In this document: one piece after another, positions 21,115 to 63,277 of the stretch
Layout: every line of letters starts with the position of its first letter
Position numbering within the stretch: the stretch's first letter is position 1
The notes under the pieces: model-generated
The model's database searches: none
What the model was told of the DNA's origin: nothing
The model's input: the letters and a program-made list of their open reading frames with translations, nothing else
Program-made: the position numbers and the translations under genes
IMG/VR virus record: IMGVR_UViG_3300047562_003246
Coordinates: 64,001-128,000 of that record
DNA length: 64,000 nucleotides
Origin: a virus
Direction: 5' to 3' (one strand)

Positions 21115-21927
21115 ATGTCTTGCGATTGTCCAGTCGATCAAATCTTTATCCTGCCATATGTAGACGGTGGGACGATTCTTTCGTGGTCGTTTCGTAAAGG
21201 TTTGACATTCTCACCGAGTGACAGTATCGAGATCCAGGTATCCAGACACGATACAACCGATGACGCTGCTTGGTCTGTTATAGGTACTGTGCCTATCGAA
21301 ACGCTACAGTATGTTGACTCGCCGAGAAGATCTTACGGTAGCCAGGAACGTGTGTATTACCGGCTAAGAATACTGCCTTACAATTGCTACACCGAAAGCA
21401 AACCGATGCTTGCCGGTGTAACCGATTGTCGCGTTAGAGGCGACATTCGTGAGATTATTCGTCGCGAGCGATCCCGACATAAATCCGGAGAAGCTCAAAA
21501 AGGCGTACTACTCAAACGCAAATATTCCGGCGTTAGATGCACAACCTGCTCTGATCCTGATTACCCAGACAGACTAATTAATTCAGATTGTCCTGTTTGT
21601 TTTCGTACAGGCTATGTCGGTGGTTATTTTTTAACGCCCAATTTTTTTGCTGACTTAAATCAGTATGGGTCTGCGGGTCAGCGAGGCGAGTATCACGACA
21701 TTGAAGGAGCGGACTCAACCACGTCACTACAGTACTTAAACATTCCCGATGTTCAAGTCGGTGATGTCTGGGTGGACACACAATCTGATCAGCGTTGGTT
21801 AGTCGATCAAATTAAAACAGTCGCCAGAGTTGGTAGCTATATTTTGATCGCTGCTGCTGGAGTGACAAAACTTAATACCGATGACATTGTTTATAAAGTG
21901 CCGGTACCGCTCGAAATGCGAAGGTAA
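21115..21927 (+). CDS. Neck/head-closure protein with Ig/FN3-like N terminus and Zn finger
   Basis: RCTTCSD...CPVCFRTGYVGGY Zn-binding motif; C-terminal GDVWVD..QRWLV beta-barrel pattern. Confidence 0.55.
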   Translation: MSCDCPVDQIFILPYVDGGTILSWSFRKGLTFSPSDSIEIQVSRHDTTDDAAWSVIGTVPIETLQYVDSPRRSYGSQERVYYRLRILPYNCYTESKPMLAGVTDCRVRGDIREIIRRERSRHKSGEAQKGVLLKRKYSGVRCTTCSDPDYPDRLINSDCPVCFRTGYVGGYFLTPNFFADLNQYGSAGQRGEYHDIEGADSTTSLQYLNIPDVQVGDVWVDTQSDQRWLVDQIKTVARVGSYILIAAAGVTKLNTDDIVYKVPVPLEMRR

Positions 21928-56484: not shown

Positions 56485-57258
56485 ATGGAGTCTTCCAATT
56501 TTTTTAACTACCAAAGGAATGCCATGGGCAACGAACAGCAAAAACCCAAAGATCCGCAAAACCAACATGCAGAGGAGTTATCGCAGCTATACGCAAAACT
56601 GCAAGAGGTATCTCGGGCTATCCGAAAAATAGAATCTGAGCAGCATATTTATTTTGGAGAAGATGTTGCCAAAGAGATATGCGAGCAATCGTTCATAAAA
56701 GCAAACAACCAAGAAAAATTCAGAGTCGATCAAACTATCGAGCGTAATTTTTACACGGCAATGTCGTACTTAGTTCTCTCTGTTATGGAGGGAAAAATGA
56801 GTCACAGTTTAGCTCTTCGATGTATACCTACGCTTTTAGACAAAGCACTAACAGAACTGATGGCTACAAAAATGGCCTCAGTTCTTACGTCTTCGCTGCA
56901 GGAAAACTACCCAGCGATAGCTACACTTATCGAGTTTCGCGTTCCGTTTCCTTACTCAGAAACATCGACTTGTCCTGTGTTTGTGAGCGTGGCAGGTCCT
57001 CCTGAAAACAGATATCACTCTCTCGGCATTCTTGGAATATTAAACGGCATGCTGGCAGAGTCGCAAAAAGTTAACGACGTTCCCATCCCAAAGATATTAC
57101 TTGAAGCTGTCTACGGTGAATTCGAACACGCTGATGGACAAAAAGAAAGCGGTTTAATCGCATTTGCTATAAAGTCCATGACTCCGAAACAACAAGAGAC
57201 AACAGATGCTGTGCTCTTAGGAGACGAGGCTGAACCTTTAGACGATGCGATAAATTAA
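56485..57258 (+). CDS. Hypothetical protein
   Basis: 257 aa; probable start ATG 56524; convergent 4-nt overlap with terminase. Confidence 0.45.
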   Translation: MESSNFFNYQRNAMGNEQQKPKDPQNQHAEELSQLYAKLQEVSRAIRKIESEQHIYFGEDVAKEICEQSFIKANNQEKFRVDQTIERNFYTAMSYLVLSVMEGKMSHSLALRCIPTLLDKALTELMATKMASVLTSSLQENYPAIATLIEFRVPFPYSETSTCPVFVSVAGPPENRYHSLGILGILNGMLAESQKVNDVPIPKILLEAVYGEFEHADGQKESGLIAFAIKSMTPKQQETTDAVLLGDEAEPLDDAIN

Positions 57259-59192
57259 ACACCAAGTGCTTCCCAAATTTCTTTAACGCGGCTGCTTAAA
57301 CTCTCAGAAAGAATGAAGCTTCCATCGTTTAACGCAGCTGCGTCTTGTGGTGTAAAGAAATCATCCAGCATCAGGTTGATATCCGGATAACCGAACTGGT
57401 GCCAAATTGCAACCGTCCCAAAGTTGACAGCATTTGCAAAATCATCACTAGTACCTACTAACTTTGTGATAATCGAGAACGAACCACCACCAGCTCTTTC
57501 TATCTGTTCTTGCTTAAGGTTAGTAAAGTCAGACAACAAGGCTCGTCCCATTGTTTGCAGCGTATCTTTTTCGTCACCCATGTACGGATTGAAGAATCGA
57601 ACCCTGCCAGCTTTGATAGCCTGAGCGAGTAATATCAAGCTTCTTGTTTTATCTAGTGTGTAATAAACACCTTCACCTGTTTCAGGATTGGATGCGTGTC
57701 TGCAAAATAATTCTTGTTTTAGGTTTGCGCCGTATCCAATACGAAAAATATTTGTATGTACAGAGGCTTGCATTTTCATAATCATTTCAGAAAAGTAACC
57801 GCCGTTACCTGTGTCGTAGGCAAGCCCATTACATCTGAATCGATTGAGTGTTTCAAGCACCATGCGAGTTTCTAATTGTCTGTCTAATGGGTTAGCGTTT
57901 TCCCAGCCCCATAAGACATCCACAGTACCGTGGTGCGATAGACCAAGCACAGCTATTTTTGTTCGAGAAAGCGGAGCAGGTCCTGCGTCATTTTTGTCTA
58001 GATACTTTAGCGAACCACCACCCCAGTCAATCGCCAACATGCGATAAGAATAATCTTGCACTAAATCTTTGGCGCGATTGACATTGTAGGGAATCCTCAA
58101 ATTAGCTGCTCGCTTGATATCCATTTCACCAAGCAGACCTGCCCCTGAGTCAAACGGTTCTCCGTAGACTTCGTTGTAAAGTCTGTACTTAGGTAACAAT
58201 GGATCTTTGACAAGCTGAATAATCTGCGCCCAGCGAGTTTGACTTTGATTGTGCCAAGGCATGATGGGTTGAGGAATATGGATACCTCGTTTTGTGAACC
58301 ATCGATCAGGATATCTAGATTGCCAGTGACCGTCTTGAACAAAGATAGGTTCTTTGCATTTAGCACAAATAATACCAGGACGCTCTGGACTGATGTCTGG
58401 TCGCCACGGACCAATCATTTTTTCAAGATCGTATTCAACGCTGCAAATGTTTTCTTTTTTGCACGTCTTGTTTCTACATGGAATTACCCATTCACTTTGG
58501 CTGCTTTCTTTCCACTTATGTTGCAGCGTACCATTAAGAGTGAGTGGTGTTCCGCTGTAAACTTCGTAGTTGCCATGCTCGCTACCGTCCATCGTACGCT
58601 GAATAACGTCAATCACATCTAGTAATGTCAGCTGGACTTCGTCAATACGAATCTTGCGAGCACTAAGACCACGAACACGGTTCGCATCGTTGTATGCGTA
58701 AGCTAAAACAATGGTTGACTTGTTTGGAAAAGATCTCTGCAAAACTTGGTTAGCAGCTTTACGATCTATCAGCATCTTTTTGACCGGTGAATCTTCGATC
58801 ATTGGCTGAATGTAAATCGAACTAAGACGCCGAATCATTTCAAAAAATGGCATCACGTAAAGTGTCTTGTAGTTATCGACCATCACAGACTCGATGATCA
58901 TTTCAAGCACGTTGTGAAACGTCTTACCAGTTTGCCGAGCGCACATTTTGACCATGAGCATAACCATGTCCATGTCAAAACAGACTTCAAACGGAAAGTG
59001 TTTCTCTAGTGTGACTTGCTTACCTTCGTATCGAAAAAGTAACGGCAGCAGAGGTGCATAATTTCGCTGATCGCCGCTAAGCTGGAATAATGTAACAAGC
59101 GGTATTAGATCTGGATTAGCGTCAGCAGCTTTCTTACACCAAAGCAGCGCTGGGTTTTCCGGATTGCTAAAGTCTACAGGTTGGATAGCCAT
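57255..59192 (-). CDS. Terminase large subunit (lambda GpA-like motif layout)
   Basis: ARQTGKT (Walker A), RVRGLSARKIRIDEVQ (Walker B), YSGTP coupling motif, CKKENIC/CAKC Zn motifs, LAIDWG, AYDTG and SDDFANA nuclease acidic residues. Confidence 0.9.
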   Translation of the reverse strand: MAIQPVDFSNPENPALLWCKKAADANPDLIPLVTLFQLSGDQRNYAPLLPLLFRYEGKQVTLEKHFPFEVCFDMDMVMLMVKMCARQTGKTFHNVLEMIIESVMVDNYKTLYVMPFFEMIRRLSSIYIQPMIEDSPVKKMLIDRKAANQVLQRSFPNKSTIVLAYAYNDANRVRGLSARKIRIDEVQLTLLDVIDVIQRTMDGSEHGNYEVYSGTPLTLNGTLQHKWKESSQSEWVIPCRNKTCKKENICSVEYDLEKMIGPWRPDISPERPGIICAKCKEPIFVQDGHWQSRYPDRWFTKRGIHIPQPIMPWHNQSQTRWAQIIQLVKDPLLPKYRLYNEVYGEPFDSGAGLLGEMDIKRAANLRIPYNVNRAKDLVQDYSYRMLAIDWGGGSLKYLDKNDAGPAPLSRTKIAVLGLSHHGTVDVLWGWENANPLDRQLETRMVLETLNRFRCNGLAYDTGNGGYFSEMIMKMQASVHTNIFRIGYGANLKQELFCRHASNPETGEGVYYTLDKTRSLILLAQAIKAGRVRFFNPYMGDEKDTLQTMGRALLSDFTNLKQEQIERAGGGSFSIITKLVGTSDDFANAVNFGTVAIWHQFGYPDINLMLDDFFTPQDAAALNDGSFILSESLSSRVKEIWEALGV

Positions 59193-59419: not shown

Positions 59420-59746
59420 TTGCGTAACGGCATACACCGTGTAGTTGTATGCGACAGCCGCATGTCCTCTGCTGGAGAGAGTGTCGTGGGAAAGTATGCC
59501 AACGACAGAAAAGCCCTGGAAGATCGCTTGATTCAACCAGGCAACCCCGAGGTTTCAGAAGCAACGTATGTAACATGCGCTGCGATGATCGGATTGGGTT
59601 ATGTTTTTGGAAGTGGACTTCTTGCTATCGTTGGTCTCGGTGCGCTCGTAGCGCGCGTCATTGTTGAAAGTCAACATGACTTGAGACAACGAGCAGCGGC
59701 TCAATCTTCCAAAAATCAACATGACTCTAACAATCAGCAGCCTTGA
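59420..59746 (+). CDS. Small membrane protein
   Basis: Hydrophobic segment MIGLGYVFGSGLLAIVGLGALVARVIV. Confidence 0.45.
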   Translation: MRNGIHRVVVCDSRMSSAGESVVGKYANDRKALEDRLIQPGNPEVSEATYVTCAAMIGLGYVFGSGLLAIVGLGALVARVIVESQHDLRQRAAAQSSKNQHDSNNQQP

Positions 59747-60092
59747 ACTTCTGATAGCGATCCTCGGCGTTTGTCAAATTCTCGAAGTTTGGCGGCACGG
59801 TTCTATCTGTGCAGAATTTAAAGCCAAACTAGAAGCGGGATATTACATGTCCCCAGATAGTTTTCTAGTCAGATTACTCATGTGTAATTTCTGTCTGAGC
59901 GTCTGGGTGACAGGAGTGGTCGTCTTACTATTAGTTCTTCGACCACTCTTTCATGAATACGTAGCAAACGTAATCACGTTTTTGATATTGGTAGCAGGGT
60001 TGACGCGGGCATCTAATTTGTTACATGATGTTACCCGTCCCTGGAGTCGTACACCAAACTCAAAAGCTGTTGAAGAGAACAGCAAAAAATAA
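59721..60092 (+). CDS. DUF1360-like membrane protein
   Basis: Three hydrophobic segments and LLMCNFCLSVW, matching the LL.C..C.S.W signature. Confidence 0.6.
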   Translation: MTLTISSLELLIAILGVCQILEVWRHGSICAEFKAKLEAGYYMSPDSFLVRLLMCNFCLSVWVTGVVVLLLVLRPLFHEYVANVITFLILVAGLTRASNLLHDVTRPWSRTPNSKAVEENSKK

Positions 60093-60098
60093 GTGAGA

Positions 60099-60133
60099 AG
60101 AGCCGCACAAGGTCACCAGTCTTGTGCGGCTCT
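60099..60133. other. Perfect 13-bp hairpin upstream of the HUH gene
   Basis: agagccgcacaag / cttgtgcggctct with 9-nt loop and only a weak T tract. Confidence 0.8.
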
Positions 60134-60188
60134 GATTTTGACTTCAGGCTAATTTCCCAACCCCAAAGCCAAACCTCAATCAATCACT

Positions 60189-61229
60189 ATGAATGTACCC
60201 GACAGGAAGTCTCGGGTCAAGAGCGTTCTCTCGCGATCCGTCAAAGAATTCGAAGAAATACAAAAGATAACAGGAGCTAAAAACCTACCTAAGTTCGAAC
60301 TGCTGATGCAAAACAAAGCACGAATTGTCCAGCAAACCAAAGCTGTTCTAGAAGAATCTTGGAACAATAGACTAGATGCTATATACCGAGGCGACATAGC
60401 GGACTCCCGCATGTTTCCTATCAAAGAGTTTCACGACAGACTCAACGATGTGGAACGCTGCTGCACAGAGTACACACGTTATGGTCCTGTGTTTGCGTGC
60501 CAGCAAAGTCTCGCATGTCCCATCTGTAACAGCCACGCTGCGTACGCTTTTGCTTCTCAAAGAACAGCGATGCTTTTTGAACAACTTGGAAAAGTAGATT
60601 ACGTCAAAGTTTTCGAAATCGTAATTAACTTTGGCGATGTGTACATGAGTTTTGCTCCAGAACGATTCGACGAACTTAGCCAAGTGCGAACAGACATACG
60701 AGACTTCTTCGCTAAACGCGATAAAGCTTTTCTGCTACAGGGTTCGAAACGAGGCTATCCAAAAACGTATCGACTACTCGATATGTTCATTCACTCTGCA
60801 CCGTCAACAGTAAACACGCAAATGATCTTCCCGCATCTGCATGTTGTCGGCGTACCTGTATCCACAAGAACAACGCTAGATGATTTTGTCGACGCAGTAT
60901 ACGCCGCTTGCAAAAACTGGAATATTCAGGCTGGGGTAAATTTTTCACCTTCAGAAACTTTCTACGCGAAAAAAGCTTCAGGCAAAAAAACAAAAAACAC
61001 CAAAGACTTTTTCAGAAAGATGCACTACTTAGCGAGGTGTATTAAACCAAGTAGTCACAACGGTAATTCGTATCTGAGCACCGTGACAAGCGTACCTAGA
61101 ATCTTGCGGCAGCGAACAAGTAAATCAGGTACCACAGTGAGCGAGCAATACCGAAAAATTAAAGCTGCTGGTAACGCCAAAATAATCGCTAGGTTTGATA
61201 GCCAGGTTTCACAGTTCCGAATAGTGTAG
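60189..61229 (+). CDS. HUH-superfamily endonuclease-like (Rep/IS91-type) protein
   Basis: CC...CQQSLACPIC Zn-binding region, FEIVINF (motif I-like), FPHLHVV (HUH), HYLAR (catalytic Tyr, Y-x-x-K-like). Confidence 0.6.
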   Translation: MNVPDRKSRVKSVLSRSVKEFEEIQKITGAKNLPKFELLMQNKARIVQQTKAVLEESWNNRLDAIYRGDIADSRMFPIKEFHDRLNDVERCCTEYTRYGPVFACQQSLACPICNSHAAYAFASQRTAMLFEQLGKVDYVKVFEIVINFGDVYMSFAPERFDELSQVRTDIRDFFAKRDKAFLLQGSKRGYPKTYRLLDMFIHSAPSTVNTQMIFPHLHVVGVPVSTRTTLDDFVDAVYAACKNWNIQAGVNFSPSETFYAKKASGKKTKNTKDFFRKMHYLARCIKPSSHNGNSYLSTVTSVPRILRQRTSKSGTTVSEQYRKIKAAGNAKIIARFDSQVSQFRIV

Positions 61230-61279
61230 GATCCTGCGCAGTCGCTTAGGTAACTCAAAATGCGGCAGTCCTACTACTA
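61222..61279. other. Long imperfect hairpin at the 3' end of the HUH gene
   Basis: tagt-gtagga-tc-ctgc-gca ... tgc-g-gcag-tcctac-t-acta. Confidence 0.6.
61226..61239 (-). repeat. Dispersed 14-mer, exact copy (reverse), overlapping the HUH gene stop codon
   Basis: gtaggatcctgcgc; TAG 61227-29 is the stop. Confidence 0.95.
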
Positions 61280-61714
61280 ATGGAAACAATTCCTCTAGGC
61301 GCGAAAAGTTTTTATAAAACAAATCGCGAATTTTCAAAATTTCATTGGGTTTTTTGGAACTTGTTCAGCAATCCCCATCAGGAGTATCTACCCTTGTCCA
61401 CACAAACCTTCAGACACACGCACTCAAACCCACACATCACTGCAATTATGAAAGTAATAACCTCTTGGTCCACTGTGAAACCCAACGACCGAATCATCTG
61501 CAAAGTATCCGTATTCGAACCGACTCTTATCCCTGATCAAAAACCCGGTAGTTGCTACTACCTCCGAATCACTTCAGTAAACCAAACCGATACTGACTTC
61601 GTCTTTGATACCCAGTACGAAAACCAAAACTTCGAACCTATTCCAGGCTTAACCAAACTACTCACCATCCCGCTTGGCGAAGATAACCGCTTCATAGTTC
61701 TTCGTAAGCCGTAA
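61280..61714 (+). CDS. Hypothetical protein
   Basis: Probable start ATG 61448 (MKVITSW...), SH3-like beta pattern. Confidence 0.35.
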   Translation: METIPLGAKSFYKTNREFSKFHWVFWNLFSNPHQEYLPLSTQTFRHTHSNPHITAIMKVITSWSTVKPNDRIICKVSVFEPTLIPDQKPGSCYYLRITSVNQTDTDFVFDTQYENQNFEPIPGLTKLLTIPLGEDNRFIVLRKP

Positions 61715-62035
61715 TGCTTTTAACTCTCGCACACAAACTTGTAGCATGCCAAAAGTAAACCAACCCAAATACGACATACCTACCGACCTACCAACCTACT
61801 GAATCTGCTTAAAGCAAACTGCTCTGTACACACAATCATCCAGTACAAAAACGGACGCATCTGGCTTTACTGCCACAACCATGCCTACGATCACAACGGC
61901 GTACTCGCCGATAACTACCTGCGACAACTAATAAACCAGTTGCCTCCAGGCTCACTTGCAGGTCACGACAATAGCCCAGCACTGTTCAACCTCAGAAACA
62001 GACACGGCAAACGAATTTAGCTCAGTAATCACTTT

Positions 62036-63277
62036 TTGTTCACTCCACTTAGTCCAGGATCAAACCAAATGTCAACAACAACAAAAAGCAATCACCCACT
62101 CGCAGATCTGTGTCTACCAGTCGAACAACTCTACGCAGAAGACCACATCTACCAACTTGTATCCTCGCAAAAACTAATCCAAGCTATTCCGACTCTAGAA
62201 CACTACATACCGCAAGTGCTATTCATGCACTCGAACCAACCAGAACTAACCAATCTGTACCTGCAGGCAATGCTGCTAAAGCACCAAAACCAAAATCTAG
62301 ATTTAACTCAGCCACTTCAAAAACTTCACTTAACAGCCGAGCAGTTCAGCAAGCTCGATCAGTACATCGCCGTCATTCCTAAATGGGTCTACCCACCACA
62401 AACAAAAGCACTCAAAATGACAACGCCGCCTGATTGTCATCCAGTTGTCGAACCGATTTACCAGTTCGCGCAGCTTCTAGACATGCCTGCCTCGGGTACC
62501 TACGCCCAAGACTACATGGACGATCAGCAATACACGATATTTATGCAAAGTCAAAAACCTGAAACGAGTCAATTCAAAAAACATCTGGTGACCAGGATCT
62601 TCGAAACACTCCACAACCAGTACGCTACAAACAATCCGGTTTACAGCAAAAGATATTTCTTGCGAACAGAAACAGATCTGGCACTGTACTCTTTACAGGG
62701 CTCCTCACGTATTACTGAAACCCAATTAAACACAGTACAAGATTTGCTTTATGCAGAGAACGTACTGACCCGTAAAGAACATCTTATGGACTACCGGCCA
62801 CTGAAGTTCATTCGGTTTTTGCTTGCAAGCAGACGCTATTTCTGCTTTGAGTTTTATAGGGTTTCACTTCATCGTGTCTGGTCGAGTAACAATCCATCTT
62901 TGTTCAGCGAGATTGACTACTCGAAACCAGAGAAAATTACACAGCAGTTATTTCATAACCTCGATAACATGCGTCAAGACTTCGAACTTGAAGTCACTTA
63001 TGATCGTCAGAAATTTCATGAACTTACTACAGGAAAAATCACTGCACAGCAAGCTGCAGAGACAACCCTGTCGGCAGATCTAGATGCTTATCCGGCAAAT
63101 AATCTGACCGTGACTCTGCCGATGTGTACAGCCACAACCAACGCAGTAGCCTTGCTGTTTAGTTTGGCGTCTCAGTTGCCTAAGTACACCATGTACCATT
63201 CGTACTTGGCTAAAGACTTCAAAACCCTTCAGCAAAACCTGGAACAACCCACGATGACCGTAAGCTCCGTTTTGTAG
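62036..63277 (+). CDS. Hypothetical protein (Q/L/T-rich)
   Basis: 413 aa; probable start ATG 62069 after AGGA; stop lies inside the 20-bp palindrome. Confidence 0.45.
   Translation: MFTPLSPGSNQMSTTTKSNHPLADLCLPVEQLYAEDHIYQLVSSQKLIQAIPTLEHYIPQVLFMHSNQPELTNLYLQAMLLKHQNQNLDLTQPLQKLHLTAEQFSKLDQYIAVIPKWVYPPQTKALKMTTPPDCHPVVEPIYQFAQLLDMPASGTYAQDYMDDQQYTIFMQSQKPETSQFKKHLVTRIFETLHNQYATNNPVYSKRYFLRTETDLALYSLQGSSRITETQLNTVQDLLYAENVLTRKEHLMDYRPLKFIRFLLASRRYFCFEFYRVSLHRVWSSNNPSLFSEIDYSKPEKITQQLFHNLDNMRQDFELEVTYDRQKFHELTTGKITAQQAAETTLSADLDAYPANNLTVTLPMCTATTNAVALLFSLASQLPKYTMYHSYLAKDFKTLQQNLEQPTMTVSSVL

What the first reader, a model, noticed from the sequence alone, without database searches (positions are those of the whole stretch)
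60099..61279. HUH endonuclease-like gene bracketed by hairpins, with the dispersed GTAG motif at the hairpin foot: a REP/RAYT-like system in a phage?
Seen: a perfect 13-bp hairpin (60099-60133) upstream; an ORF with CxxC Zn region, PHLH and YLAR motifs; and at its stop codon a copy of the 14-mer pairing with a degenerate inverted copy (61261-61274) to form a 58-nt imperfect hairpin. In reverse orientation the motif starts GTAG. Established: RAYT/TnpA-REP HUH nucleases sit beside REP hairpins that begin with GTAG and are scattered through the genome; IS91 and IS200/605 HUH enzymes also use terminal hairpins. Inference: this enzyme may cut at or have spread the 14-mer. Caveats: the motif layout looks Rep/IS91-like rather than Y1-type, and most copies are intragenic and lack REP-length hairpins.
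Basis: partly seen in the sequence, partly recalled or inferred. Interest (0 to 1): 0.8.

Follow-up and report, generated by a model that had tools for sequence, protein, structure and literature searches.

The report
Divergent rolling-circle Rep gene in phage
A 185-kb uncultured phage carries a very divergent plasmid-type rolling-circle replication initiator at the head of its replication genes, but nothing ties this enzyme to the 14-letter word scattered through the genome, so the proposed REP/RAYT-like system is not supported.

Summary
The ORF at 60189-61229 is real. It most likely encodes a divergent Rep_1-like (pC194/pUB110 type) HUH rolling-circle initiator. It has a CxxxxxCPxC zinc knuckle, PHLH and a conserved Tyr280, all colinear with plasmid Rep_1 proteins (hhalign probability 84%). 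Fold and language-model searches also point to replication initiators, not to Y1 or Y2 transposases.

The family is tiny: 4 proteins among 1.8 billion representatives. The gene lies about 2.4 kb upstream of an RNase H, SbcCD, helicase, DnaB, primase and DNA polymerase module.

The upstream 13-bp hairpin is real but looks like one of the phage's dozen post-gene intrinsic terminators. The downstream "hairpin" is an ordinary copy of the genome-wide 14-mer next to a 3-edit look-alike, which is chance-level.

The 14-mer has 30 exact copies, evenly spaced and enriched at gene boundaries. It is a genuine separate signal, already reported twice by this scan on this same genome. Two Rep-less related phages keep their own evenly spaced words.

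Verdict: the HUH call is right and the REP/RAYT-like mobile or nicking system is not supported. The enzyme is most likely an origin nickase for sigma-mode replication, or a captured plasmid initiator. Its cognate site is unidentified.

The parts
60099..60133 (+). Perfect 13-bp stem, 9-nt loop, followed by GATTTTGA. It starts 7 nt after the stop of ORF 59721-60092. Most likely the intrinsic terminator of the upstream small-gene operon.
   Evidence: dG -16.1, z -5.4; listed first among the terminator-like sites; one of about 12 long perfect intergenic hairpins after gene ends, most with T tails; the sequence is unique in the genome.
60189..61229 (+). Rep gene, 346 aa (P0001): a divergent Rep_1-like HUH rolling-circle initiator.
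60459..60527 (+). Cys4 zinc-knuckle region (C91, C104, C110, C113; CQQSLACPIC). All four Cys are invariant in the 4 family members. It aligns with the C-x4-CPxC of plasmid Rep_1.
60600..60629 (+). Beta-strand 138-147 (VFEIVINF...), aligned with Rep_1 motif 1 (FLTLT).
60831..60842 (+). HUH motif P215-H216-L217-H218. P215, H216 and H218 are invariant, on strand 212-223 of the model.
61026..61028 (+). Tyr280 (MHYLAR), the only invariant Tyr. It lies on helix 271-282 and is the putative catalytic nucleophile. It aligns with the Rep_1 catalytic Tyr only in the extended, low-confidence alignment.
61226..61239 (+). One exact copy of the genome-wide 14-mer (GTAGGATCCTGCGC on the + strand). Its TAG (61227-61229) is the Rep stop codon. 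It is an ordinary member of the 30-copy array.
61262..61274 (+). 3-edit look-alike of the 14-mer in inverted orientation (GCGGCAGTCCTAC). It gives the weak 58-nt hairpin and is chance-level.
61230..61447 (.). A 218-bp non-coding stretch between Rep and the next likely start (ATG 61448), AT-rich and then CA-rich. It is a candidate location of the Rep's cognate origin, by inference only. No iterons and no pC194-type nick sequence were found.

Best explanation
ORF 60189-61229 encodes a highly divergent member of the Rep class of HUH endonucleases. It is closest to the Rep_1 (pC194/pUB110) rolling-circle initiators. Its order is an N-terminal helical region, a Cys4 zinc knuckle, a beta-alpha-beta-beta-alpha-beta core carrying HUH (H216/H218), and a helix carrying the single catalytic Tyr280.

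By analogy with Rep_1, phiX174 gpA and P2 gpA, the inferred mechanism runs as follows:
1. The enzyme cuts one DNA strand at a specific origin site.
2. It stays linked to the 5' phosphate through Tyr280.
3. It leaves a 3'-OH that the phage's own helicase and polymerase extend.
4. This yields sigma-mode concatemers for the lambda-type (GpA) terminase.

The gene's position at the head of the replication module fits this role. The cognate site is not identified; the 218-bp non-coding stretch just downstream is the best guess.

The two hairpins are not part of the system. The upstream one is the terminator of the preceding operon. The downstream one is a chance pairing of one copy of the 14-mer array. 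That array is a separate, evenly spaced, boundary-enriched recognition-site lattice for an unidentified factor.
For: SHOWN - identity as a Rep-class HUH enzyme:
- C91, C104, C110, C113, H202, P215, H216, H218, Y280 and K286 are invariant in the 4-member family.
- hhalign of this family against 10 plasmid Rep_1 proteins gives probability 84% and E 7e-6. The zinc knuckle, the motif-1 strand and HUH are colinear. Tyr280 falls on the Rep_1 Tyr in the extended alignment.
- ESM Atlas feature scores are 0.96-0.97 to Rep_1 clusters, and TM is 0.55-0.58 over about 260 residues. With Rep_1 excluded, the next families are REP_ORF2-G2P and RepSA.
- The AF2 model (pLDDT 60, core 70-87) has the Rep topology.
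- The best solved-structure match is the SIRV1 ORF119 Rep (Z 8.1, 116/116 residues). MVM NS1 and AAV Rep are also listed.
- Of the six BFVD hits that carry names, four are replication or nonstructural proteins: a microvirus replication initiator, a rudivirus Rep, a densovirus nonstructural protein and a Parvoviridae protein. The other two are uncharacterized.

SHOWN - context and separation from the 14-mer:
- RNase H, SbcD, SbcC, a helicase, DnaB, primase and DNA polymerase follow, starting about 2.4 kb downstream and spanning about 14 kb. The terminase is GpA-type.
- The upstream hairpin belongs to the class of post-gene hairpins with T tails.
- The downstream pairing is at chance level.
- The 14-mer array is evenly spaced (CV 0.50; 0 of 20,000 simulations reached it) and boundary-enriched (13 of 30 copies, p 2e-4).
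- Rep-less relatives G005 and G006 have their own evenly spaced words.

INFERRED: the nicking chemistry, the role in sigma replication and the location of the origin.
Against: - No Pfam or PHROG model reaches significance. The homology rests on profile-profile, language-model and fold evidence of moderate strength: probability 84%, Z 8.1 among many ferredoxin-like folds, and Foldseek PDB with nothing at E <= 0.001.
- The Glu four residues before the Tyr, catalytic in pC194 RepA (from my own knowledge of that literature), is Arg here.
- No pC194-type nick sequence and no iterons lie near the gene.
- Ten related genomes of 181-225 kb lack any homologue. Unfiltered profile and signature scans of eight of them were also empty. 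So the enzyme cannot be a core replication function of this phage group.
- Expression and activity are untested.
Confidence: 0.6

Rival explanations
1. Captured selfish replicon. The gene is the initiator of a small rolling-circle plasmid or ssDNA element, or an IS91-like unit, that integrated into this phage. It is a passenger, or it now serves some accessory purpose, and is not the phage's replication initiator.
For: - It is present only in this genome among 10 relatives and 80 terminase loci.
- The family has only 4 members. Two of them are known only from 2.1-2.4 kb contigs.
- The region 61-63 kb has aberrant strand composition.
- The nearest families are plasmid initiators.
Against: - There is a single copy and no recognisable element ends or target duplications.
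- There is only one conserved Tyr, whereas IS91 TnpA has two (PMC5714925), and no Y2_Tnp match.
- The gene sits in the transcription direction of the phage at the head of the replication module.
- Short Logan contigs are the norm and do not show small replicons.
- One homologue lies on a 54.8-kb contig.
Confidence: 0.2
2. The HUH enzyme recognises the 14-mer (GTAG at the foot) and nicks it or has spread it, as RAYTs do with REPs. This would make the 30 sites strand-specific nick or initiation sites.
For: - One exact copy overlaps the gene's stop codon.
- Both the gene and this particular 14-mer are unique to this genome among all accessible collections.
- Six other relatives show neither the gene nor an obvious array.
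- HUH enzymes are sequence-specific nickases.
Against: - The enzyme is Rep-class, not Y1/RAYT.
- The 14-mer has no REP-like hairpin. Its 8-bp core cannot extrude, and flanking partners are absent in general.
- Copies are embedded in coding frames with unrelated flanks, so they were written in by substitution, not inserted as elements.
- Both orientations are used: 19 against 11.
- Even spacing and enrichment at gene boundaries fit a binding-site lattice.
- Rep-less G005 and G006 have analogous arrays.
- The stop-codon overlap is shared with two other genes.
Confidence: 0.07
3. Not an HUH enzyme. The PHLH and Tyr motifs are coincidental in an unrelated alpha/beta (ferredoxin-like) zinc protein of unknown function.
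For: - There are no significant sequence-family hits.
- Foldseek against the PDB gives only generic ferredoxin-like domains.
- The VIA Z of 8.1 is at the level the tool calls common.
- The model is of middling confidence.
Against: Four independent lines converge on rolling-circle initiators. Three motifs are colinear with the correct secondary-structure placement, and the Cys, His and Tyr residues are invariant across 20-31% identical homologues.
Confidence: 0.1

Closest known systems
Rep_1 family rolling-circle initiators (PF01446; RepA of pC194, RepU of pUB110)
   Same: The order is the same: C-x(4-5)-CPxC zinc knuckle, motif-1 strand, HUH, then a single Tyr on a helix. The size is similar (about 230-470 aa for the ten plasmid proteins aligned). 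hhalign probability is 84%. These are also the nearest clusters in the ESM Atlas.
   Different: - It scores below the Pfam cut-off, with no hit at all.
- It has about 90 extra N-terminal helical residues.
- Motif 1 is not FLTLT.
- There is no Glu at Tyr-4.
- There is no CTTGATA-type nick site nearby.
- It is encoded in a 185-kb dsDNA phage, not in a small plasmid.
Phage rolling-circle initiators: P2 gpA and phiX174 gpA (Phage_GPA, PF05840), and filamentous-phage gpII-type REP_ORF2-G2P (PF23343)
   Same: These are HUH nickases encoded by a phage to start sigma or rolling-circle replication. REP_ORF2-G2P clusters are the second-nearest in the Atlas, and one family member gives a weak Pfam hint at E 0.055.
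   Different: There is no significant sequence match. There is one Tyr, not two as in phiX174 gpA (from my own knowledge). The host genome has a full DnaB, primase and polymerase set.
SIRV1 ORF119 Rep (PDB 2x3g)
   Same: It is the best solved-structure match to the catalytic core: Z 8.1, 116 of 116 residues, model residues 120-291. It is a Rep encoded by a large linear dsDNA virus.
   Different: Sequence identity is 11%. It has no zinc knuckle, it is archaeal, and it is much smaller.
RAYT/REP systems (Y1 transposase TnpA-REP with GTAG-footed REP hairpins)
   Same: It is an HUH-superfamily enzyme in a genome with a dispersed short repeat that reads GTAG on one strand.
   Different: - There is no Y1_Tnp match, and the enzyme is Rep-class.
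- The repeats are 14 bp without hairpins and lie largely inside genes.
- The gene is not flanked by inverted repeat copies.
IS91 family TnpA (Y2_Tnp with Zn_Tnp_IS91)
   Same: It combines an N-terminal zinc-binding region with an HUH domain. IS91 TnpA is related to pUB110-type Reps (PMC5714925).
   Different: Only one Tyr is conserved, against Y249 and Y253 in IS91. There is no Pfam match, there is a single copy, and there are no ori/ter ends.
17-bp dyad repeat of Cluster O mycobacteriophages (TGTTCGG-N3-CCGAACA; PMC4351075), as a comparison for the 14-mer only
   Same: There are more than 30 invariant copies spread through a phage genome, many between ORFs or near ORF ends, and the function is unknown.
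   Different: The word here is a 14-bp quasi-palindrome with a fixed asymmetric position and an A-tract flank. The spacing is about 6 kb in a 185-kb genome.

Membership tests
Rep_1 (PF01446) rolling-circle initiators | Match to the family profile above the curated cut-off | tested here: not met
   hmmscan at E <= 10 gave no Rep_1 hit. A PF01446 search of the whole genome found nothing. An unfiltered hmmsearch with my own 10-sequence Rep_1 profile also found nothing.
Rep_1 (PF01446) rolling-circle initiators | Remote homology: colinear zinc knuckle (C-x4-CPxC), motif-1 strand and HUH | tested here: met
   hhalign of A1 against A3 gave probability 84.3%, E 7.3e-6 and 106 columns. The conserved columns are listed.
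Rep_1 (PF01446) rolling-circle initiators | Catalytic Tyr on a C-terminal helix, with Glu four residues upstream (E-x-x-K-Y-x-x-K) | tested here: inconclusive
   Y280 is invariant, lies on helix 271-282 and aligns with the Rep_1 Tyr in the extended alignment. Position Y-4 is Arg, not Glu, and that part of the alignment has low confidence.
Rep_1 (PF01446) rolling-circle initiators | Cognate double-strand origin with a CTTGATA-type nick site next to the gene | tested here: not met
   No CTTGATA lies between 58119 and 64000. No match to TTCTTATCTTGATA with up to 3 mismatches lies near the gene.
HUH endonuclease superfamily, Rep class | Beta-alpha-beta-beta-alpha-beta core with HUH on a central strand, and Tyr C-terminal to it on a helix | tested here: met
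   AF2 model: E138-147, H153-183, E194-205, E212-223 (HUH), H230-247, E251-261 and H271-282 (Y280). The top VIA hit is the SIRV1 Rep at Z 8.1. Named BFVD hits include microvirus, rudivirus and densovirus replication proteins.
HUH endonuclease superfamily, Rep class | Metal-dependent ssDNA cleavage with a covalent 5'-phosphotyrosine intermediate | not testable with these tools
   This needs biochemistry.
RAYT/REP system | Enzyme is a Y1 transposase (Y1_Tnp, PF01797; IS200/IS605-like) | tested here: not met
   There is no Y1_Tnp hit at E <= 10. All nearest Atlas families are replication initiators.
RAYT/REP system | Repeats are 20-40 nt imperfect palindromes (hairpins) with GTAG at the 5' foot, and are extragenic | tested here: not met
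   The word is 14 bp with an 8-bp palindromic core. The folds of the 30 copies show no general hairpin partner. 19 of the 30 copies lie wholly inside ORFs.
RAYT/REP system | The gene is flanked by repeat copies in inverted orientation | tested here: not met
   There is one copy, at the 3' end only. The upstream hairpin is unrelated in sequence and unique in the genome. The nearby 'inverted copy' is a chance-level 3-edit match.
IS91 family (rolling-circle transposon) | Y2 transposase with two catalytic Tyr, profile match, multiple copies or element ends | tested here: not met
   Only Y280 is invariant. There is no Y2_Tnp or Zn_Tnp_IS91 hit. The gene has a single copy in the genome. IS91 has Y249 and Y253 (PMC5714925).

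The most novel reading that the evidence does not exclude
It would nick one strand at each GCGCAGGATCCTAC, about every 6 kb. That would give either T5-like programmed single-strand interruptions or many rolling-circle or strand-displacement start points in a 185-kb dsDNA phage. It would be a new use of an HUH initiator, private to this phage lineage.
Probability: 0.07. Interest if true: 0.8.

Novelty: new variant of a known kind. Interest (0 to 1): 0.3.

Why it matters
Plasmid-type rolling-circle initiators are not a standard part of large tailed-phage replication modules. This one belongs to a family so rare (4 sequences among 1.8 billion representatives) and so divergent that the standard annotation models tried here (Pfam, PHROGs) give no significant match. 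If it is active, it would mark a phage that combines a full DnaB, primase and polymerase replisome with an HUH nickase to start sigma replication, as P2 does on a much smaller scale. It would also add a new sequence-specific HUH enzyme. The negative result matters as well: the scattered 14-mer should not be annotated as a REP-like mobile repeat, and its reader protein remains to be found.

Tried and rejected
Sequence searches with the Rep protein:
- Pfam, PHROGs and PDB sequence searches gave nothing significant, either with the single protein or with the 4-sequence profile.
- The single-sequence AF2 model failed, with pLDDT 37.
- Foldseek against the PDB gave only generic ferredoxin-like domains.
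- tblastn of P0001, P0002 and P0004 against GenBank phages, and of P0001 against PLSDB plasmids, found no match.
- blastn of the 7-kb region against phages found no match.

Searches for relatives of the Rep:
- Profile scans of IMG/VR, JGI metagenomes and GTDB genomes found none.

Searches for genomes sharing the 14-mer:
- The exact 14-mer in IMG/VR gave 54 single, unrelated hits.
- The 17-mer in JGI metagenomes gave 33 single hits with no G000 homologues.
- So there is no accessible close relative, and the co-occurrence test at close range could not be done.

Other negative results:
- The phyletic-pattern search for a protein shared only with the array-bearing relatives G005 and G006 found none.
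- The synteny test for an insertion was uninformative because the relatives share only about 25% of genes.
- No iterons or terminal repeats lie around the gene.

Full report
CONTEXT. The window is bases 64001-128000 of a single 185,237-bp IMG/VR virus record. CheckV estimates it 88% complete, and its GC content is 44.7%. About 204 ORFs lie almost all on the + strand. A GpA-type large terminase lies on the - strand at 57255-59192. Starting about 2.4 kb downstream of the finding lie RNase H, an SbcD-like phosphoesterase, SbcC, a helicase, a DnaB-like helicase, a primase and a DNA polymerase. The ORF under study therefore sits at the head of the replication and recombination module.

OBSERVATION, CONFIRMED PARTS. 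The hairpin at 60099-60133 is real. It has a perfect 13-bp stem and a 9-nt loop, with dG -16.1 kcal/mol and z -5.4. The ORF 60189-61229 encodes 346 aa and contains CPIC, PHLH and YLAR. The 14-mer GTAGGATCCTGCGC lies at 61226-61239 and supplies the TAG stop codon. The word is the most over-represented 14-mer in the genome. It has 10 exact copies in the window, against 0.23 matches (up to 2 mismatches) expected, and 30 exact copies genome-wide.

OBSERVATION, CHANCE-LEVEL PART. The 'degenerate inverted copy' is GCGGCAGTCCTAC at 61262-61274, a 3-edit match. Such matches occur at 0.43 per kb. Four of the 30 exact copies have one within 100 nt, against roughly 2.5 expected from that density (my estimate). 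The 94-nt fold energy around this copy is -10.7 kcal/mol, inside the genome background of -9.1 +/- 3.2. It is the copy with the most motif bases paired to a flank (12). That is one best-of-30 observation and does not make a class.

THE UPSTREAM HAIRPIN. A genome-wide survey of perfect hairpins with stems of 10 bp or more finds 21. About 12 of them are intergenic, usually 26-39 nt after the end of a + strand gene and mostly followed by T5-T9. The 60099 hairpin starts 7 nt after the stop of ORF 59721-60092 and is followed by GATTTTGA. It is the first-listed terminator-like site in the consensus scan. Its sequence is unique in the genome and contains neither the 14-mer nor GTAG. I read it as the terminator of the upstream small-gene operon, at about 75%. 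A role as an origin hairpin for the Rep cannot be excluded.

THE PROTEIN, SEQUENCE EVIDENCE. Standard profile searches fail. An exhaustive phmmer search of 1.84 billion representatives finds only three relatives: P0002 (29% identity, E 4e-38), P0003 and P0004. All three are singletons from Logan assemblies. In the 4-way alignment the invariant residues are C91, C104, C110, C113, H202, P215, H216, H218, Y280 and K286.

I built an alignment of ten bona fide plasmid Rep_1 proteins, pC194 RepA and nine diverse PLSDB 'protein rep' genes. Their invariant columns include C-x(22)-C-x4-CPxC, FLTLT, HxH and E-x-x-K-Y. Profile-profile comparison gives probability 84.3% and E 7.3e-6 over 106 columns. It aligns the zinc knuckle, the motif-1 strand and HUH in the same order and spacing. 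With a relaxed threshold the alignment extends, and Y280 falls on the Rep_1 catalytic Tyr. The Rep_1 Glu at Tyr-4 corresponds to Arg here.

THE PROTEIN, STRUCTURE AND LANGUAGE-MODEL EVIDENCE.
- The ESM Atlas places the protein next to Rep_1 clusters, with feature scores of 0.96-0.97 and TM of 0.55-0.58 over about 260 residues.
- With Rep_1 excluded, the next clusters are REP_ORF2-G2P and RepSA, again rolling-circle initiators. No transposase family appears.
- An AF2 model from the 4-sequence alignment has pLDDT 60, pTM 0.63 and a core at 70-87. It shows beta-alpha-beta-beta-alpha-beta, with HUH on strand 212-223 and Y280 on helix 271-282.
- The Foldseek-independent search of 48,161 PDB chains ranks the SIRV1 ORF119 Rep first, with Z 8.1 and all 116 residues aligned. 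MVM NS1 and AAV5 Rep are also listed, among many generic ferredoxin-like domains.
- Against BFVD, named hits include a microvirus replication initiator, a rudivirus Rep and a densovirus nonstructural protein, at E 4e-4 to 1e-2.
- Foldseek against the PDB gave nothing specific.

Taken together I put about 0.8 on a Rep-class HUH nuclease related to Rep_1. IS91 membership fails on the single conserved Tyr. IS91 TnpA has Y249 and Y253 (PMC5714925), and no Y2_Tnp or Zn_Tnp_IS91 profile hit was found.

THE 14-MER, ITS NATURE.
- Copies have unrelated flanks, apart from a frequent A-tract after ...CCTAC.
- 19 copies read GCGCAGGATCCTAC on the + strand and 11 read the reverse.
- 19 of the 30 copies lie wholly inside ORFs, mostly in the frame that reads A-Q-D-P-T.
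- Three copies supply a TAG stop: the Rep copy, genome 145800 and genome 181555.
- 13 of the 30 lie in intergenic DNA or within 30 nt of a gene end, against 15% of the genome (p 2e-4).
- The spacing is much more even than random. The gap CV is 0.50, and 0 of 20,000 simulations reached it.
- The palindromic core is only 8 bp, and the copies have no general hairpin partner.

These are the properties of a lattice of recognition sites written in by substitution, not of inserted REP or MITE-like elements. This scan has already reported the array on this same genome (e1-5807520, e1-5807534). I re-derived the spacing and the relatives' arrays independently. I also checked the cited analogue, the 17-bp dyad repeat of Cluster O mycobacteriophages, which is present more than 30 times and has no known function (PMC4351075).

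THE 14-MER, ITS LINK TO THE REP. No close relative of this phage is accessible. Exact-word scans of IMG/VR and of JGI metagenomes give only single, unrelated hits. The nearest IMG/VR genomes share 35-37% terminase identity and only about a quarter of the genes.

None of ten such genomes of 181-225 kb, seven of them at least 90% complete, has a Rep homologue (positive control). None of 80 terminase loci has one either. For the eight genomes I fetched in full (G002: the first 180 of 192 kb), unfiltered hmmsearch with both the family profile and my Rep_1 profile was empty. A zinc-knuckle-plus-HUH signature scan hit only G000.

Two of these Rep-less genomes nevertheless carry their own evenly spaced private words:
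- G005: AAAATCC[G/A]GAATT, 19 copies, CV 0.54, p 0.003.
- G006: GGTAAATA[A/G]GAACC, 15 copies, CV 0.53, p 0.007.

The G005 word is, like the G000 word, a 12-bp quasi-palindrome with one fixed asymmetric position. The other six genomes show no obvious exact dispersed word of 10 bases or more. So such arrays exist in this phage group without this Rep. It does not fully meet it, because the words differ and their densities are 50-65% of G000's. I leave 7% for a Rep-14-mer link.

MECHANISM. Shown: the motif set, the fold class, the genomic position, and the terminator-like nature of the upstream hairpin. Inferred by analogy with Rep_1, phiX174 gpA and P2 gpA:
- The enzyme binds an origin, possibly using the zinc knuckle.
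- The HUH histidines hold the metal.
- Y280 attacks one strand and stays on the 5' end.
- The 3'-OH is extended by the phage polymerase behind a helicase.
- The resulting concatemers feed the GpA-type terminase.

The cognate site is unknown. There is no pC194-type CTTGATA near the gene and there are no iterons. The 218-bp non-coding stretch at 61230-61447 is the most plausible place. Because the gene is absent from all relatives examined, it is an accessory or recently acquired initiator. The rival that it is simply a captured plasmid or ssDNA-element gene is given 0.2.

VERDICT. The HUH identification is supported, and the REP/RAYT-like system is not. The gene is a new, very divergent variant of a known kind, a Rep-class HUH initiator, in an unusual host genome. 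Interest is modest, at 0.3.

LIMITATIONS. Two tools that could have been decisive were unavailable: the look-up of encoding contigs and the look-up of sequencing runs.

Noticed in passing
window 61001-63000: Strand composition is strongly aberrant (GC skew -0.25, AT skew +0.16) relative to the rest of the genome. CA-rich leaders lie before Rep (60134-60188) and before ATG 61448. ORF 62036-63277 (413 aa) has no Pfam or PHROG match.
   Followed up: partly
genome 2113, 21797 and 166465 (outside the window); window 10024: Intergenic copies of the 14-mer in the GTAGG orientation. Those at 21797 and 74024 (window 10024) sit directly after a terminator hairpin's T-run, and the 2113 copy forms a terminator-like hairpin of its own. 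The 2113, 21797 and 166465 copies lie 7-14 nt before the next start codon, while 74024 abuts an in-frame ATG. This suggests a preferred slot between terminator and start.
   Followed up: partly
G005 = IMGVR_UViG_3300034107_000725 (L196-L205); G006 = IMGVR_UViG_3300018080_000105 (L206-L215): Two related phages of 184-194 kb carry their own evenly spaced private words: AAAATCC[G/A]GAATT (19 copies) and GGTAAATA[A/G]GAACC (15 copies).
   Followed up: partly
G008 = IMGVR_UViG_3300018080_000104, 185.0-190.2 kb (L145): A cluster of about 19 units, often about 100 bp apart. Each carries AAGTGTGCTTTG and, on the other strand, CAGAACATAATC. It looks like a promoter or small-gene array near a genome end.
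   Followed up: no
window 57255-59192: The GpA-type large terminase is one of the very few genes on the minus strand of a genome otherwise transcribed in one direction.
   Followed up: no
whole window: CTTGATA, the pC194/phiX-type nick heptamer, occurs 19 times against 8.8 expected, but never within 2 kb of the Rep gene. This is probably a codon-usage effect.
   Followed up: no
window 61205-61215 and 61472-61482: A perfect 11-nt inverted repeat (GGTTTCACAGT / ACTGTGAAACC) brackets the non-coding stretch downstream of Rep. By my estimate, about 0.6 such pairs are expected by chance in the 2.2 kb examined.
   Followed up: partly
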